From: a virus
Taxonomy: Duplodnaviria > Heunggongvirae > Uroviricota > Caudoviricetes
IMG/VR virus record: IMGVR_UViG_3300029234_000076
Reading direction: 5' to 3' (one strand)
DNA: 6,914 nt
Part shown: positions 347-5,976 of the stretch, one piece after another
Position numbering within the stretch: position 1 is the first letter of the stretch
How the letters are laid out: every line of letters starts with the position of its first letter
Program-made: the position numbers and the translations under genes
Notes under the pieces: generated by a model
Told to the model about the DNA's origin: nothing
Database searches by the model: none
What the model saw: the letters and a program-made list of their open reading frames with translations, nothing else

Positions 347-805
347 TTATTTCAGGCATTGCGTCCTGATGTATTCCTGCAGGTAGTTAACCTGCGCGGT
401 TATCTTGTCGATTCCACTTCGGAGACGGTAATAATTGAGTTCAGCATCTGCTGTAAGTCCTGGGCTTTCTCCATCGCCCATGCCGCTGGCTCCGGTCGTT
501 GACTTTGCACAGGTGGCGGCGACTTGCAGGCGCTTACGCCCAGCAGAAACATCAGCACGGAGACTTTCGATAGTCGCGTTAGCATCAGCAAGCTCCTTTG
601 TGTATCTTGCATCGAGTTCTGCTACATCACGTTGACGCTTCCGCATGTCAGCGATGGTGGCGTTCGCCTTCTCCAGTTCTCTGACATTTTTGTCGCGCTG
701 GGCTTTGTAGGTAATGGCGTTATCACGGTAATGATTAACAGCCCATGACAGGCAGACGATGATGCAGATAACCAGAGCGGAGATAATCGCGGTTACTCTG
801 CTCAT
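347..805 (-). CDS. Rz: Rz i-spanin (inner-membrane spanin subunit), lambda Rz-like
   Basis: The translation [40 protein letters not shown]... matches the lambda Rz N-terminus as I recall it, with an N-terminal TM helix and a C-terminal region ending QCLK. The ATG at 803-805 overlaps the endolysin TGA stop (802-804) as ATGA; the listed ORF start at 817 is four codons upstream and less likely. Confidence 0.85.
400..585 (-). CDS. Rz1: Rz1 o-spanin (outer-membrane lipoprotein), embedded in Rz in the +1 frame
   Basis: The ORF lies wholly inside Rz in another frame. An internal Met at 583-585 is preceded by AAGGAG with a 7-nt spacer. The product [33 protein letters not shown]... has a lipoprotein signal peptide with a lipobox (VSAC) and a proline-rich mature part, typical of Rz1. 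Confidence 0.75.
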
Positions 806-1299
806 TGTTTCCCCCACAAACAGACTTCACGCTCAATCTCACGGCGAGTCATCAGTCCTTTCCATTGATTACCGCCAGCGTATGTCCAGCGCCGTAGCTG
901 ATCACATGCGCCTTTGATATCGCCCTGGTTTATTTTGCGAAGAAGCGTCGATGTTCTGAAATTGCCAGCACCCACGTTGTAAACGAATGAGTAAAGAGCG
1001 CCGCGCGTTGTTTCCGGTATATCGACTTCGATGTACGGGTTAATTTGTCTGGCGACAGTGGCAAGGTCTTTATTCAAGAGTGCTTTGCATTCTGCTTTGG
1101 TATACGTTTTACCGAGCATGATGTCTTTTCCTGTATGCCCGTGACATACAGTCCATACACCAACAATATCTTTATATGGTATGTAGCTGACACCTTCCAG
1201 ACCATCGTCACCACTCGGACCAGTGATGAGCACAGACGCTATGGCAACAGCCCCACCACCAATAGCAGCTGCTACAGCCTTGCGTAATGATGGCGACAT
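802..1299 (-). CDS. R: SAR endolysin (phage 21 R-type lysozyme, T4-lysozyme-like muramidase)
   Basis: 165 aa. The N-terminus [20 protein letters not shown] is a Gly/Ala-rich signal-anchor-release segment, followed by [25 protein letters not shown] (lysozyme catalytic region). It is near-identical to P21 R / DLP12 RrrD as recalled. Its start shares one nt with the S stop. Confidence 0.9.
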
Positions 1300-1514
1300 T
1301 ATTCACCTCTCGCAGCCTTACGCTTATCTTCTTTAATCTTGAAATAAAGGTTTGTCAGGTACGTCAGCAGGCCAAATACCAGGCTACCCAGCACTCCAAT
1401 TGCCGCCCACTGTGAGGGCGTGACTTTATCTAGCAGCTGTAAAAACCAGTACCCGGCACTACCTGCTGAGGTGCCATAGGCGACACCCGTTGTTAACTTA
1501 TCCATGGATTTCAT
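1299..1514 (-). CDS. S: Pinholin (phage 21 S21-type class II holin) with dual-start motif
   Basis: 71 aa, MKSMDK... (Met1 and Met4 dual start, antiholin/holin), with two TM segments (TMD1 Gly/Ala-rich SAR-like, TMD2 [18 protein letters not shown]) and a charged C-terminus [13 protein letters not shown]. Strong SD GAGGTGG upstream of the ATG at 1512-1514. Confidence 0.9.
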
Positions 1515-1625: not shown

Positions 1626-1659
1626 CAAAAAATGGAAAAACCCGCTCGACGGCGGGTTT
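1626..1659 (-). terminator. Putative intrinsic terminator on the late-gene strand about 110 nt upstream of S (tR'-like candidate)
   Basis: On the minus strand: stem aaacccgc / gcgggttt (plus 1652-1659 and 1638-1645) with a 6-nt loop, followed by UUCCAUUUUUU. The position relative to S parallels lambda tR' upstream of S. Confidence 0.35.
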
Positions 1660-1699
1660 AAGCTGTGTGACGAAGTAACCACTCTTAACAGCATAACCA

Positions 1700-2087
1700 A
1701 TTTTTTACGTACGTAAACCACTAAATGATATTTGCGAGAATGCTACCGAGTATTGAAAACACCACTACAAATACATAAGCAAATCTCAACAAATAACCAA
1801 CAAATAATTTCCAGTGTTATTTTTAGCCGATTTAAATTGAACCTTCAAATTATAGAGCACTTATAAATAACAACCGTTAGTATAAATTGGCTAATAGATT
1901 TATTTTTATTCAGCCAAGAGCTATGAATAGGATTCGATAGAAAAAAGTTCAGATAAAAATAGAGATCTACTTCACAAATCAAACGAGAAACCAAAACTTA
2001 CATCTTGAAATAATCACATTGATTAGATGAATATTTATCGCGCAGTGACATCATTTTTTAATAATAGTTCAAAAAAAAGGGCTCACG
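1700..2087 (+). promoter_or_regulatory. AT-rich upstream regulatory region and promoter of the porin gene (exact -35/-10 not resolved)
   Basis: About 390 bp, very AT-rich, with no ORF of meaningful size, immediately upstream of the porin ATG. SD AAGGG lies 7 nt before the ATG at 2088. It contains an OmpR-box-like sequence at 1996-2021 (see findings). Confidence 0.4.
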
Positions 2088-3170
2088 ATGAAAAAATTAA
2101 CAGTGGCAATTTCTGCTGTAGCTGCATCAGTACTGATGGCGATGTCTGCTCAGGCAGCTGAAATTTATAATAAAGACAGTAACAAGCTGGATCTGTACGG
2201 GAAAGTTAATGCTAAGCACTACTTCTCCTCTAATGATGCAGATGATGGTGATACTACTTATGCCCGTCTTGGCTTCAAAGGTGAAACCCAAATCAACGAT
2301 CAACTGACTGGTTTCGGTCAGTGGGAATATGAATTCAAAGGCAACCGCGCTGAATCTCAAGGTTCTTCCAAAGACAAAACCCGTCTTGCATTTGCAGGCC
2401 TGAAATTTGGTGATTACGGCTCAATCGATTACGGCCGTAACTACGGTGTAGCATACGACATCGGTGCGTGGACTGACGTCCTGCCAGAATTCGGTGGTGA
2501 TACCTGGACCCAAACAGATGTGTTCATGACTGGTCGCACTACTGGTGTTGCAACTTATCGTAACAACGACTTCTTTGGTCTGGTCGATGGCCTGAACTTT
2601 GCTGCTCAGTATCAGGGTAAAAATGACCGCACTGACGTAACTGAAGCCAATGGTGATGGTTTCGGTTTCTCCACTACTTATGAGTATGAAGGATTCGGCG
2701 TGGGTGCAACCTATGCTAAATCAGATCGCACTGACGGTCAGGTCGCCTATGGTAAGAGCAAATTCAATGCCTCCGGCAAAAATGCGGAAGTATGGGCTGC
2801 AGGCCTGAAATATGATGCGAACAATATCTATCTGGCTACCACATATTCTGAAACTCAGAATATGACCGTTTTTGGTAATAACCATATTGCAAACAAAGCA
2901 CAAAACTTTGAAGCAGTAGCACAATATCAGTTTGACTTCGGTCTGCGCCCATCTGTTGCTTACCTTCAGTCAAAAGGTAAAGACCTTGGTGTTCATGGTG
3001 ACCGAGACTTAGTCAAGTATGTCGATGTCGGTGCTACTTACTACTTTAATAAAAACATGTCCACTTTTGTTGATTACAAAATCAACTTAATTGACGATAG
3101 TAAGTTTACCAAAACAGCTGGTATTGATACTGATGACATCGTTGCTGTAGGTCTGGTTTACCAGTTCTAA
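2088..3170 (+). CDS. nmpC: General bacterial porin, OmpC/OmpF/PhoE family; prophage-borne NmpC/Lc/OmpD-type
   Basis: 360 aa. Signal peptide [23 protein letters not shown]|AEIYNK, conserved porin motifs ([60 protein letters not shown]-terminal VGLVYQF). Oriented opposite to the flanking phage genes and visibly lower in GC than its neighbours. Confidence 0.9.
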
Positions 3171-3332
3171 TCTGATTACGAAAAAGATATGTTGCGGGAG
3201 GCGTTGCCTCCCCAACATATAAGTGGCTCCCTCAAGCCACTTCCTTTAGAAGCACAACCTTGCTTCTAACTATATAAACCTTCTGTTATATATTACCCTT
3301 TATTTTTGGGGGCGTCTCAACGCCCCATTTTT
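3171..3332 (+). ncRNA. ipeX: Structured 3' UTR of the porin gene, IpeX-like sRNA element
   Basis: Four consecutive stem-loops directly after the porin stop: 3187-3220 (15-bp stem with one bulged C), 3221-3242 (8-bp stem), 3246-3269 (9-bp stem), and 3308-3326 followed by a U-tract. This matches the published description of ipeX as lying in the untranslated region between the nmpC/lc stop codon and its rho-independent terminator. Exact 5' end unknown. Confidence 0.5.
3308..3332 (+). terminator. Rho-independent terminator of the porin / IpeX-like transcript
   Basis: Stem ggggcg (3309-3314) / cgcccc (3321-3326), loop tctcaa, followed by auuuuu (3327-3332). The U-tract is on the plus strand only. 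Confidence 0.7.
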
Positions 3333-3359
3333 AATAATTTTTAGTAAACAATTGGCATA

Positions 3360-3743
3360 TTAATTAGAGTTATTAACAACGATATCCATCTCTAACCAGA
3401 TATCTAATGCCATTAACATCCCTTCAATTATGCCCTCAGCTTTTTGTAACCTTTTCCCGATATAACCATCAGAGCAGCAATGCTTACCTGCCAGTGACAT
3501 GAATGTCATACCGACTACATAATAATCTACTAATAAATCGTGCAAATCGCTGTTGTTCTTTTTCAGACGGGCCATGCACCCGCAAATGATCATCGCGTCA
3601 TCGTCACAACATTGCGGGCGAGATTTTACTTTTGAAGGAATTAATCCCTTAAAACCGGCGGCAATGGACGACCAGGTCACATCTTCATGATTATTAGCCG
3701 CCCACGCTCCCCAACGCTCAAGAACCATCTGAATATCACGCAT
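3360..3743 (-). CDS. Q: Late-gene antiterminator Q (phage 21/82-type, QuuD-like)
   Basis: 127 aa from the ATG at 3741-3743: [24 protein letters not shown]...[16 protein letters not shown]...HCCSDGY, with Cys clusters consistent with the zinc-binding Q family. It sits in the classical position upstream of the lysis genes. The ORF-track start at 3758 is a TTG five codons upstream; the ATG is preferred. Confidence 0.85.
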
Positions 3744-5586: not shown

Positions 5587-5976
5587 TCAGGCAGCTGCAC
5601 CCGCCGTTTTCTCGTACTTACTGATAGTGATCTCGACCTTCCCTTCCGGGATAACCGGTCCCCACTCCACCAGCATTCTTTTCACCTGACTGTCGTCTTC
5701 CCACACCCCCGCGTGGGTCAGGGCGTCAAACAGCGCCTTGTTATAGTTGTCCAGATCGCGGATCCTGTTATCCGGAGGAAACAACACGATCTCCACTGAA
5801 GCAGGTGCCGACGTTGGTTTCGGCAGACGACGTAACTGCTCAACTATTGCTGCGCACGCCGCGCTCTGGAATTTTCGCCCCGCCGCGCTTATCAGGCTCT
5901 TACCAGCAAACGCCCCTTTGTTGGGGTGTCGCCAGTACGTGTTCACGCTGGGCGGAAAAGGCAGGATCAGCTTCAT
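5587..5976 (-). CDS. rusA: RusA-family Holliday junction resolvase
   Basis: 129 aa. The motif pattern LPFPPSVNTYWRH...RDLDNYNKALFDALTHAGVWEDDSQV parallels E. coli RusA (LPWPPSNNRYYRH...[26 protein letters not shown]). The start ATG overlaps the upstream gene's TGA (ATGA at 5973-5976). Confidence 0.85.
   Translation of the reverse strand: MKLILPFPPSVNTYWRHPNKGAFAGKSLISAAGRKFQSAACAAIVEQLRRLPKPTSAPASVEIVLFPPDNRIRDLDNYNKALFDALTHAGVWEDDSQVKRMLVEWGPVIPEGKVEITISKYEKTAGAAA

What the first reader, a model, noticed from the sequence alone, without database searches (positions are those of the whole stretch)
1626..1659. Candidate tR'-like terminator upstream of S
A minus-strand hairpin plus U-tract sits about 110 nt upstream of the pinholin start, where lambda has tR'. 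Together with the possible minus-strand terminator at 3180-3220, the late strand has two candidate termination points between Q and S, which would make lysis-gene expression strictly dependent on Q antitermination across the moron. On the plus strand the same hairpin lies in the far upstream region of the porin gene and lacks a U-tract.
Basis: seen in the sequence. Interest (0 to 1): 0.4.

Follow-up and report, generated by a model that had tools for sequence, protein, structure and literature searches.

The report
Late-gene terminator just after prophage late promoter
The hairpin is a real transcription stop signal sitting about 25-57 bases after the prophage's Q-controlled late promoter and ahead of the lysis genes, which is the ordinary lambdoid-phage arrangement and not a second barrier on a transcript crossing the porin gene.

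Summary
On the minus strand, 1659-1638 forms an 8-bp stem (5 G-C pairs) with a 6-nt loop, followed by TTCCATTTTTT to 1627. A hairpin of this grade is expected 0.23 times per window.

The hairpin is a tR'-like terminator, but the late promoter does not lie next to Q. Window 1636-1718 is about 77-78% identical to the annotated pR'/qut/first-terminator block just after Q in VT2-Sakai and 933W-type Stx phages. The window's Q is 78% identical to their Q (Pfam PF06530, the Q21/Q933W family).

The predicted pR' (-35 at 1717-1712, -10 at 1695-1690, start near 1683) lies downstream of the porin gene. The hairpin therefore spans +25 to +46 of the late transcript. Phage 21's annotated terminator ends at about +50, the same layout.

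- In 108 related loci a Q gene always lies upstream.
- A palindrome in the promoter matches the Q allele one-to-one.
- A GC hairpin plus T-tract recurs at about +28 to +62, often with unrelated stem sequences.

Caveats: no termination assay exists for this element. In Sakai the mapped 3' end is a second terminator at +258 that this window lacks. A common PA-2-type variant has a mismatched stem. This is an ordinary member of a known kind.

The parts
1638..1659 (-). Terminator stem-loop. The 5' arm is AAACCCGC (1659-1652), the loop CGTCGA (1651-1646) and the 3' arm GCGGGTTT (1645-1638). This is +25 to +46 of the predicted late transcript; the G-C core 1656-1641 is +28 to +43.
   Evidence: It is homologous to the annotated terminator of VT2-Sakai.
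1626..1637 (-). T-rich tail. Counting from the G-C core it reads UUUUU-CC-A-UUUUUU. Release is expected at about +48 to +57.
   Evidence: The T-tract score is 4.22.
1660..1683 (-). Conserved initial transcribed leader AGAGTGGTTACTTCGTCACACAGCTT. The start is predicted at A1683 (plus or minus 2) by homology with the dRNA-seq start in Sakai.
1690..1695 (-). Predicted pR' -10 hexamer TATGCT. A TAnnnT hexamer is kept at this position in all variants listed.
   Evidence: VT2-Sakai has a promoter annotation here.
1712..1717 (-). Predicted pR' -35 hexamer TTTACG, with a 16-nt spacer to the -10.
1704..1717 (.). Perfect 14-bp palindrome TTTACGTACGTAAA, followed by an A-run. It is a candidate Q-binding element, and its type matches the Q-protein cluster one-to-one.
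1299..1514 (-). S21-type holin/antiholin (71 aa, dual start at 1514 and 1505). It is the first late gene after the terminator.
   Evidence: PF04971.
802..1299 (-). Endolysin (165 aa), annotated as a SAR endolysin in phage 434B.
   Evidence: PF00959.
347..817 (-). Rz-type spanin ORF.
3360..3743 (-). Antiterminator Q (QuuD-like, 127 aa from MRDIQ). It belongs to the Q21/Q933W family and is 78% identical to VT2-Sakai Q.
2088..3170 (+). Porin gene (lc/nmpC-type moron). It is inserted between Q and pR' and is transcribed against the late strand.
3180..3220 (-). Long hairpin (15 pairs) followed by UCUUUUUCG. It lies upstream of pR', so it is not part of the late transcript. It is a possible stop for transcription leaving Q.
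   Evidence: d = -2.4, borderline.
3309..3326 (+). Plus-strand terminator of the porin transcript.

Best explanation
The hairpin is the promoter-proximal intrinsic terminator (the tR' equivalent) of the prophage's Q-dependent late operon.

Sigma-70 RNA polymerase starts at a late promoter immediately upstream: -35 TTTACG at 1717-1712, -10 TATGCT at 1695-1690, start near A1683. The promoter carries the Q-allele-specific palindrome 1704-1717 in its spacer.

Without Q, the nascent RNA folds the stem at +25 to +46 and is released in the U-run at about +48 to +57. This gives a leader RNA of roughly 50 nt, and little transcription reaches the holin start at +170.

With Q (3360-3743, acting in trans from the far side of the porin moron), the polymerase is modified at the promoter-proximal stage. 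It then reads through the hairpin into S-R-Rz.

What is shown: the structure, its statistical rarity, homology to annotated pR'/terminator blocks, co-occurrence with Q, co-variation of the palindrome with the Q allele, and conservation of a hairpin plus T-tract at this position.

What is inferred: the start site, the termination efficiency and Q-dependent read-through.
For: 1. Window 1636-1718 aligns at about 77-78% identity with the block just after Q in VT2-Sakai, 933W-type and H-19B-type Stx phages. That block carries annotated 'putative late promoter', 'putative Q-utilization' and 'possible rho-independent terminator' features.
2. The window's Q is 78% identical to VT2-Sakai Q, and both match PF06530. 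That family is named Q21/Q933W in bioRxiv 10.1101/651190.
3. In Sakai the pR' start was mapped by dRNA-seq (PMC7547250). It falls about 7 nt after the homologous -10.
4. In all 108 pattern-selected loci that have upstream sequence, a Q homologue lies upstream on the same strand. It is either 0-75 nt or 0.6-3 kb away.
5. The promoter palindrome type matches the Q cluster one-to-one, whatever the distance. This marks the promoter as the cognate Q site.
6. 76 of 78 distinct leader variants carry a hairpin plus T-tail, mostly at +25 to +60, with at least six unrelated stem sequences.
7. In a sample chosen by Q protein (one genome per species), 64% of 64 leaders have a positive terminator score within +5 to +100. 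Only 2% of 128 control windows from the same loci do.
8. The phage 21 record OL657228 annotates TSS, SDPE and a terminator spanning +3 to +50, citing PMID 1704887. This is the same layout.
9. No other terminator-like site lies between 1637 and 1514 on the minus strand.
Against: - No direct assay of this element was found. The Rueggeberg 2013 and 2015 papers on the DLP12 promoter could not be read.
- The Term-seq tables of Adams et al. 2021, as held, list no 3' end at MG1655 5772xx, where the identical sequence lies. Very short RNAs or low expression could explain this.
- In Sakai the mapped stable 3' end of the pR' RNA is at +258, at the second terminator. A 258-nt RNA exists there, so the homologous first hairpin is read through at least partly without induction.
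- The window's score (+8.1) is lower than Sakai hairpin 1 (+22), Sakai hairpin 2 (+24) and phage 21 (+29).
- 14 of 38 DLP12/PA-2-type leaders carry GCTGG, which puts a C-U mismatch in the core. Their score is -29.
- Within the closely related class the stem is nearly invariant, so there are few true compensatory changes.
- The sigma-dependent pause element was not identified.
Confidence: 0.8

Rival explanations
1. The late transcript starts beside Q, runs antisense through the porin moron, and meets two terminators in series (3180-3220 and 1626-1659). Q is needed to carry the polymerase across the moron.
For: In most textbook lambdoid phages, and in 933W-type and phage 21 records, pR' abuts Q. 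A strong minus-strand hairpin with a short T-run does exist at 3220-3180.
Against: - The window has no copy of the Q-specific palindrome or of the conserved leader near Q. The only copies are at 1704-1717 and 1675-1687.
- Homology to the Stx-phage pR' block starts at 1718.
- About two-thirds of related loci also have 0.6-3 kb of cargo between Q and the same promoter module.
- The promoter scan finds nothing between 3171 and 3359 on the minus strand.
- The 3220-3180 site scores only -2.4.
Confidence: 0.04
2. The hairpin mainly works as an insulator. It stops stray minus-strand transcription from reaching the lysis genes. Such transcription could be read-through from the early operon past Q, antisense transcription through the porin gene, or divergent starts in the porin promoter region.
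For: An intrinsic terminator acts on any transcript of that strand. The moron brings 1.7 kb of foreign, promoter-rich AT-rich DNA directly upstream. The holin is toxic, so insulation would be useful.
Against: The same hairpin position is kept in phages where Q abuts the promoter and nothing is inserted. Its position is fixed relative to the promoter, not relative to the cargo. This role is compatible with the best explanation rather than an alternative to it.
Confidence: 0.1
3. The hairpin is chiefly the 3' end and stability element of a small leader RNA of about 50 nt. That RNA would have its own trans-acting (Hfq-type) function, in the way StxS arises from the Stx-phage late promoter. Control of the lysis genes would be secondary.
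For: Late-promoter by-product RNAs can become regulators (PMC7547250). The leader +1 to +24 is conserved across phages whose Q proteins are only 45-50% identical. A stem-loop plus U-tail is the usual Hfq-binding 3' end (established knowledge).
Against: - The functional StxS fragment comes from +173 to +258, which this window lacks.
- There is no Rfam match.
- Leader conservation is also expected for Q loading and pausing, and it was partly imposed by my search pattern.
- The by-Q sample shows the leader diverging in other genera.
- The 5' inverted repeat shows no pairing signal above shuffles.
- No RNA 3' end was reported at this site in K-12.
Confidence: 0.08
4. The hairpin is a decaying relic with little present effect. 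In cryptic DLP12-like prophages the late control region is no longer under selection, and the lysis genes are driven by other inputs.
For: The tail is interrupted and the score is the lowest of the intact terminators compared. A third of the closest relatives carry a stem mismatch. Literature cited in PMC7918800 lists RpoE and Hha, besides Q, as inputs to the DLP12 lysis operon.
Against: The window's stem is intact. The element is 100% identical in inducible phages isolated recently, such as PhiR30_1, Kati and mEp332. About 2,400 of 5,426 complete E. coli genomes keep the region at over 90% identity.
Confidence: 0.08

Closest known systems
First 'possible rho-independent terminator' after pR' in VT2-Sakai, 933W, SC370 and phi345 Stx phages (GenBank AP000422 20767-20789)
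   Same: It is the homologous sequence: AACCCGCC-loop-GCGGGTTTTT, with 77-78% identity over an 83-nt block. It follows the same promoter and the same leader, lies at the same distance from the start, and pairs with a 78%-identical Q.
   Different: In the Stx phages Q abuts the promoter, the U-run is uninterrupted (7 U) and a second terminator follows at +258. That second terminator gives StxS, and tRNA and stx genes come next. Here a porin moron separates Q from the promoter, the tail is UUUUUCCAUUUUUU, there is no second terminator, and the holin follows after 112 nt.
Phage 21 late terminator (OL657228 39543-39590; PMID 1704887 as cited in the record)
   Same: It belongs to the same Q family (PF06530). 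The layout is the same: pR', an element in the promoter spacer, then a hairpin and U-run ending near +50, ahead of an S21-type holin.
   Different: There is no sequence similarity in the promoter, leader or hairpin. The phage 21 QBE is a direct repeat (ATTGAGCA/AATGAGCA), whereas here the element is a palindrome. The phage 21 hairpin is much longer (-17 to -20 kcal/mol) and starts at +3. Two tRNA genes follow it.
Lambda tR' and 6S RNA
   Same: It plays the same role: an intrinsic terminator that stops the constitutive late-promoter transcript until Q modifies the polymerase. Sy et al. summarise this.
   Different: Lambda Q belongs to another family (PF03589). From my own knowledge, lambda tR' is about 194 nt from the start, whereas this one is at about +50.
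StxS small RNA
   Same: It arises from the homologous late promoter, as a by-product of termination.
   Different: The active 74-nt StxS comes from +173 to +258 and ends at the second terminator. That segment is absent here.

Membership tests
Q-antiterminated late-operon intrinsic terminator (tR' class) of lambdoid phages | A G+C-rich stem-loop directly followed by a U-run on the late strand | tested here: met
   8-bp stem with 5 G-C pairs, 6-nt loop and tail UUUUUCCAUUUUUU. The score is +8.1, and 0 of 300 shuffles reach it.
Q-antiterminated late-operon intrinsic terminator (tR' class) of lambdoid phages | Lies downstream of the Q-dependent late promoter and upstream of the first late (lysis) gene | tested here: met
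   The promoter is assigned by homology to the annotated pR' of VT2-Sakai, whose start was mapped by dRNA-seq, and by the Q-matched palindrome. The hairpin is at +25 to +46 and the holin ATG at +170. The start itself is inferred, not mapped.
Q-antiterminated late-operon intrinsic terminator (tR' class) of lambdoid phages | A cognate Q antiterminator gene is present in the same element | tested here: met
   Q at 3360-3743 matches PF06530 at E = 5e-53 and is 78% identical to VT2-Sakai Q. A Q gene lies upstream in all 108 loci with sequence available.
Q-antiterminated late-operon intrinsic terminator (tR' class) of lambdoid phages | Terminates without Q and is read through with Q | not testable with these tools
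   This needs in vitro transcription or reporter assays. Indirect data are mixed: Sakai RNA reads through the homologous hairpin to +258, and no K-12 3' end is listed.
Q-antiterminated late-operon intrinsic terminator (tR' class) of lambdoid phages | The element is kept at the same position in related phages | tested here: met
   76 of 78 leader variants carry it. 64% of leaders chosen by Q protein score positive, against 2% of controls. Unrelated stems occupy the same place.
StxS small RNA | Contains the +173 to +258 segment with the seed and the second terminator | tested here: not met
   Only the first 83 nt of the Sakai pR'-to-tR' region match the window.
Q21-type regulatory cassette as defined for phage 21 | Q protein of Pfam PF06530 | tested here: met
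   The match to Q21 PDB chains has E = 1.5e-7.
Q21-type regulatory cassette as defined for phage 21 | QBE made of two 8-bp direct repeats between -35 and -10 | tested here: not met
   The spacer element here is a perfect palindrome (1704-1717), and related alleles also carry palindromes. The position is comparable.
Q21-type regulatory cassette as defined for phage 21 | A sigma-dependent pause element just after the start | tested here: inconclusive
   TAAGAG resembles phage 21's TAAGCTG but straddles the predicted start. The -10-like hexamer TACATT of Sakai is TACTTC here.
Rfam RNA families | A match to any curated covariance model | tested here: not met
   No match at E <= 1 anywhere in the window.

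The most novel reading that the evidence does not exclude
In DLP12/PA-2-type prophages, present in about half of complete E. coli genomes including K-12, the late promoter may fire constitutively and this hairpin may release an abundant leader RNA of about 50 nt. The RNA would have a conserved 5' part (AGAGUGGUUACUUCG(U/C)CACACAGCUUAA) and a stem-loop plus U-tail 3' end. It might act in trans as a chaperone-bound regulatory RNA, making it a second and much more widespread late-promoter by-product RNA alongside StxS. A separate reading that is also not excluded: Q proteins of the 933W subfamily may recognise a dyad-symmetric site that has diversified together with Q, and the Q-to-promoter junction may be a preferred landing site for cargo genes.
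Probability: 0.1. Interest if true: 0.55.

Novelty: new member of a known kind. Interest (0 to 1): 0.2.

Why it matters
- It corrects the map of a very common E. coli prophage region (DLP12, PA-2, 434B-type). The Q gene and its late promoter are split by the porin moron, so Q acts in trans on a promoter 1.7 kb away. The lysis genes are then gated by a single, moderate terminator about 50 nt into the transcript.
- This bears on why the DLP12 lysis genes leak enough to affect biofilm and vesicle phenotypes in K-12.
- It gives exact coordinates for testing that idea.
- None of the three records I inspected for this region (434B, MG1655, PA-2) annotates the promoter or the terminator.
- Otherwise the element is textbook lambdoid late control.

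Tried and rejected
- **Rfam:** a search of the whole window at E <= 1 found nothing.
- **Unreadable papers:** the DLP12 promoter papers (PMID 23378572, 25998262), the phage 21 paper (PMID 1704887) and the 933W genome paper (PMC93574) are not held.
- **K-12 3' ends:** the Term-seq supplements of Adams et al. 2021 hold no entry at 5772xx. This is uninformative for very short RNAs.
- **Literature searches:** searches for essD with Term-seq, Hfq or essDp found nothing relevant. The riboswitch-entropy paper that mentions essD concerns other coordinates.
- **Covariation in the terminator stem:** in the closely related class the stem is almost invariant. MAFFT placed gaps in the loop, and RNAalifold returned only the 5' stem. 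I relied instead on unrelated hairpins recurring at the same position and on a control-window comparison.
- **5' inverted repeat as an RNA hairpin (+2 to +17):** 75.2% of cells pair against 73.9% in shuffles, so the idea is not supported.
- **CRP site:** the PA-2 record annotates a CRP site over the leader. I rejected this as the main role for two reasons. The half-sites are spaced by 8 rather than 6, and the sequence is conserved in phages without the porin.
- **Sakai genome coordinates:** the record held is a later version and is offset from the paper's numbering. I therefore placed the start from the 258-nt length instead.
- **Strict leader motif in the by-Q sample:** it is missing in many genera. 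I re-anchored on the palindrome instead. The leader conservation seen is partly an artefact of the search pattern.

Full report
**1. What the window is.** The window is the late-control and lysis region of a DLP12/PA-2/434B-type lambdoid prophage.
- On the minus strand lie a Q antiterminator (3360-3743, PF06530), an S21-type holin (1299-1514, PF04971), an endolysin (802-1299) and an Rz ORF (347-817).
- On the plus strand, between Q and S, lies a 360-aa porin of the lc/nmpC type (2088-3170).
- The 800 bases around the finding are 98-99.5% identical to several recently isolated coliphages and to phage 434B, and 94% identical to PA-2.
- The region 1490-1780 differs from E. coli K-12 MG1655 DLP12 at two positions.
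- The 261 bases upstream of and into S occur in 2,661 of 5,426 complete E. coli genomes.

**2. The observation.** Read on the minus strand, 1659-1638 is AAACCCGC-CGTCGA-GCGGGTTT, followed by TTCCATTTTTT to 1627.
- The scan tool ranks it second among terminator-like sites in the window.
- The 8-bp hairpin is worth about -12 kcal/mol and the 5-bp G-C core -8.0 kcal/mol.
- The whole-segment fold is only modestly unusual (z = -2.2). The specific grammar is rare, however. Hairpins with at least 8 pairs, at least 5 G-C pairs and a T-rich tail occur 0.23 times per shuffled window on both strands.
- A d'Aubenton-Carafa-type score gives +8.1, while no shuffled 69-nt window out of 300 exceeds -14.8. I recalled the formula from memory and used modern energies.
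- The tail ends 112 nt before the holin ATG.

**3. The key result: the late promoter is right in front of the hairpin.** A sensitive DNA search with 1500-1760 returned the close relatives. It also returned about 280 Stx-phage records that match only query bases 43-125, which is window 1718-1636, at 77-78% identity.
- In VT2-Sakai, SC370, phi345 and Ss-VASD this block lies directly after Q. It carries the annotations 'putative late promoter pR'', 'putative Q-utilization' and 'possible rho-independent terminator'.
- The alignment pairs window TTTACG-16 nt-TATGCT with Sakai TTTACG-16 nt-TATCAT. A shared leader TAAGAGTGGTTAC follows, and then the hairpin: window AAACCCGCCGTCGAGCGGGTTTTT, Sakai AACCCGCCGATGCGCGGGTTTTTTT.
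- The window's Q is 78% identical to Sakai Q. Both belong to PF06530, which Yin, Kaelber and Ebright call the Q21/Q933W family.
- Sy, Lan and Tree mapped the Sakai pR' start by dRNA-seq and a 3' end 258 nt downstream (PMC7547250). Counting back from the second annotated terminator places the start about 7 nt after the -10 hexamer.
- By homology the window's start is A1683 (plus or minus 2). The stem then spans +25 to +46, the U-run reaches +57 and the holin ATG is at +170.
- The window has only one copy of the promoter palindrome (1704-1717) and one copy of the leader (1675-1687).

**4. Is that promoter really Q's promoter?** I collected 120 viral contigs containing the leader motif.
- In all 108 loci that include upstream sequence, a PF06530-type Q lies upstream on the same strand. 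It is either 0-75 nt away or 0.6-3 kb away.
- Clustering the Q proteins at 75% identity gives a one-to-one match with a short palindrome in the promoter spacer:
  - TTTACG(A/T)(T/A)CGTAAA for the window/933W cluster
  - GCGGTCCGC
  - GCGTACGC
  - TGTTATAACA
  - TGTCATGACA
  - TGGAATTCCA
  - TTCGTTACGAA
- By my count on the sequences, the dyad centre is about 23.5 nt before TAAGAG (about -27.5) in the four types I checked.
- An element that changes with the Q allele, whether or not cargo separates the two, is what a Q-binding element should look like. This is strong indirect evidence that the late transcript starts here and not beside Q.

**5. Is the hairpin a conserved functional part?**
- Among 78 distinct leader variants, 76 have a hairpin with a T-rich tail, mostly at +25 to +60.
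- Within the close class the loop varies (GUCGA, GAUGC, GCCU, GCUGA, ACUGA, AUUGA, GCGA) while the stem stays the same.
- In other classes the stem is replaced by unrelated G-C hairpins, such as CCUCGC-UUCG-GCGGGG, CCGCCAA-AAU-UUGGUGG and CCCUGCC-N8-GGCGGGG.
- My pattern imposed part of the leader, so I drew a second sample by Q protein from one genome per species. The strict leader is absent in many genera. Anchoring on the palindrome still recovers the module in 64 of 77 loci.
- In that sample, 64% of leaders have a positive terminator score within +5 to +100, typically at +28 to +62. Only 2% of 128 control windows from the same loci and strand do.
- Phage 21 is the prototype of the Q family. 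Its record annotates pR', the QBE, the start, the pause element and a terminator spanning +3 to +50, with a literature reference. The sequence is unrelated but the layout is the same.

**6. Mechanism proposed.** Polymerase starts near 1683. Without Q, the stem forms as positions +25 to +46 leave the enzyme, and the transcript is released in the U-run, giving an RNA of about 50 nt. With Q, loaded at the promoter-proximal stage, hairpin formation at the exit channel is blocked. This is the mechanism shown for Q21. Transcription then continues into S, R and Rz. No other terminator-like site lies between 1637 and 1514, so this would be the only gate.

**7. What does not fit, or is not shown.**
- There is no assay of this element. 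The two papers most likely to contain one could not be read. A later paper cites them for Q, RpoE and Hha control of the DLP12 lysis operon.
- In Sakai the stable 3' end is the second terminator at +258, and a 258-nt RNA accumulates. The homologous first hairpin is therefore leaky there. The paper does not discuss it. The window lacks that second terminator and the StxS segment.
- The window's score is the lowest of the intact terminators compared.
- 14 of 38 closest relatives, including PA-2, have GCTGG, a core mismatch that drops the score to -29.
- K-12 Term-seq tables list no 3' end here.
- I could not identify the pause element with confidence.

The minus-strand hairpin at 3220-3180 is real (15 pairs, -19.7 kcal/mol) but has a short T-run and scores -2.4.
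- It lies upstream of the late promoter, so it cannot be a second barrier within the late transcript. If it works, it stops transcription leaving the Q gene from running antisense into the porin gene.
- The 3171-3330 interval holds four strong hairpins (z = -5.6). On the plus strand it is the porin 3' untranslated region, ending at the plus-strand terminator 3309-3326.

**9. Comparison and verdict.** The closest known element is the first annotated terminator after pR' of VT2-Sakai and 933W-type phages, which is a homologue. The closest characterised analogue is the phage 21 late terminator. Lambda tR' is the functional archetype but belongs to a different Q family and lies further from the start. 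This element is not StxS.
- The finding is a correct call of an ordinary element, with a wrong surrounding model.
- Novelty is low. It is a new (unannotated) member of a known kind.
- Interest is 0.2. That comes mainly from the corrected architecture and from the side observations on the Q-matched palindromes and the cargo site between Q and its promoter.

Noticed in passing
window 1704-1717 (and the same position in L003, L007, L008, L010-L211): A perfect palindrome overlaps the -35 and spacer of the late promoter; here it is TTTACGTACGTAAA. Its sequence type matches the Q-protein cluster one-to-one across 108 loci. By my count its dyad centre lies near -27.5 in the types I checked, and in most variants an A-run follows. 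Phage 21's QBE is a direct repeat, so Q proteins of the 933W subfamily may recognise a dyad-symmetric site.
   Followed up: partly
window 1718-3359; loci: The distance from the Q stop codon to the late promoter is bimodal: 0-75 nt or 0.6-3 kb. Cargo sits exactly between Q and its promoter. The cargo is the porin here, a GIY-YIG nuclease gene in phiP27 and a 1-kb reverse-strand ORF in SfII. This suggests a recurrent insertion site that leaves Q control intact because Q acts in trans.
   Followed up: partly
window 3171-3330: Four strong hairpins lie between the porin stop codon and the Q stop codon (-67 kcal/mol, z = -5.6). On the plus strand this is the porin 3' UTR. From memory, that is the region described as the IpeX RNA, which represses OmpC (Castillo-Keller et al. 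2006). Rfam gave no match.
   Followed up: partly
L002 (PA-2, J02580) 1730-1750, equivalent to window ~1662-1682: The 1986 PA-2 record annotates a CRP-binding site directly over the conserved late-transcript leader GTGGTTACTTCGTCACA. The same leader occurs in phages without the porin, and the half-sites are spaced by 8 rather than 6. The CRP assignment therefore looks doubtful.
   Followed up: partly
PA-2-type relatives (L002, L010, L021, L109 and others), equivalent to window 1643: A G-to-T change (GCGGG to GCTGG) puts a mismatch in the core of the terminator stem in 14 of 38 DLP12/PA-2-type leaders. All 14 also carry a 16-nt insertion (CTGCTTTTTTGCGATA) further down the leader. The late-gene gate may differ in tightness between these two common alleles.
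   Followed up: partly
window 1666-1682 (leader +2 to +18): An inverted repeat AGTGr-N8-yCACA is present in most leaders. Pair counts are not above shuffles (75.2% against 73.9%), so there is no evidence that it acts as an RNA hairpin. It may be a DNA signal for pausing or Q loading.
   Followed up: yes
L003 762-784 (VT2-Sakai) and Sy et al. 2020: The Stx-phage pR' transcript contains a canonical-looking terminator at +25 to +50 (score +22). That is as good as the +258 terminator (score +24), which is the one reported as tR'. The published analysis does not mention the first one.
   Followed up: partly
window 5719-5740 (+): This is the only other hairpin in the window of the same grade (8 pairs, 5 G-C pairs, T-rich tail). 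It lies on the plus strand, inside the minus-strand 129-aa ORF 5587-5976. It is probably a chance match.
   Followed up: no
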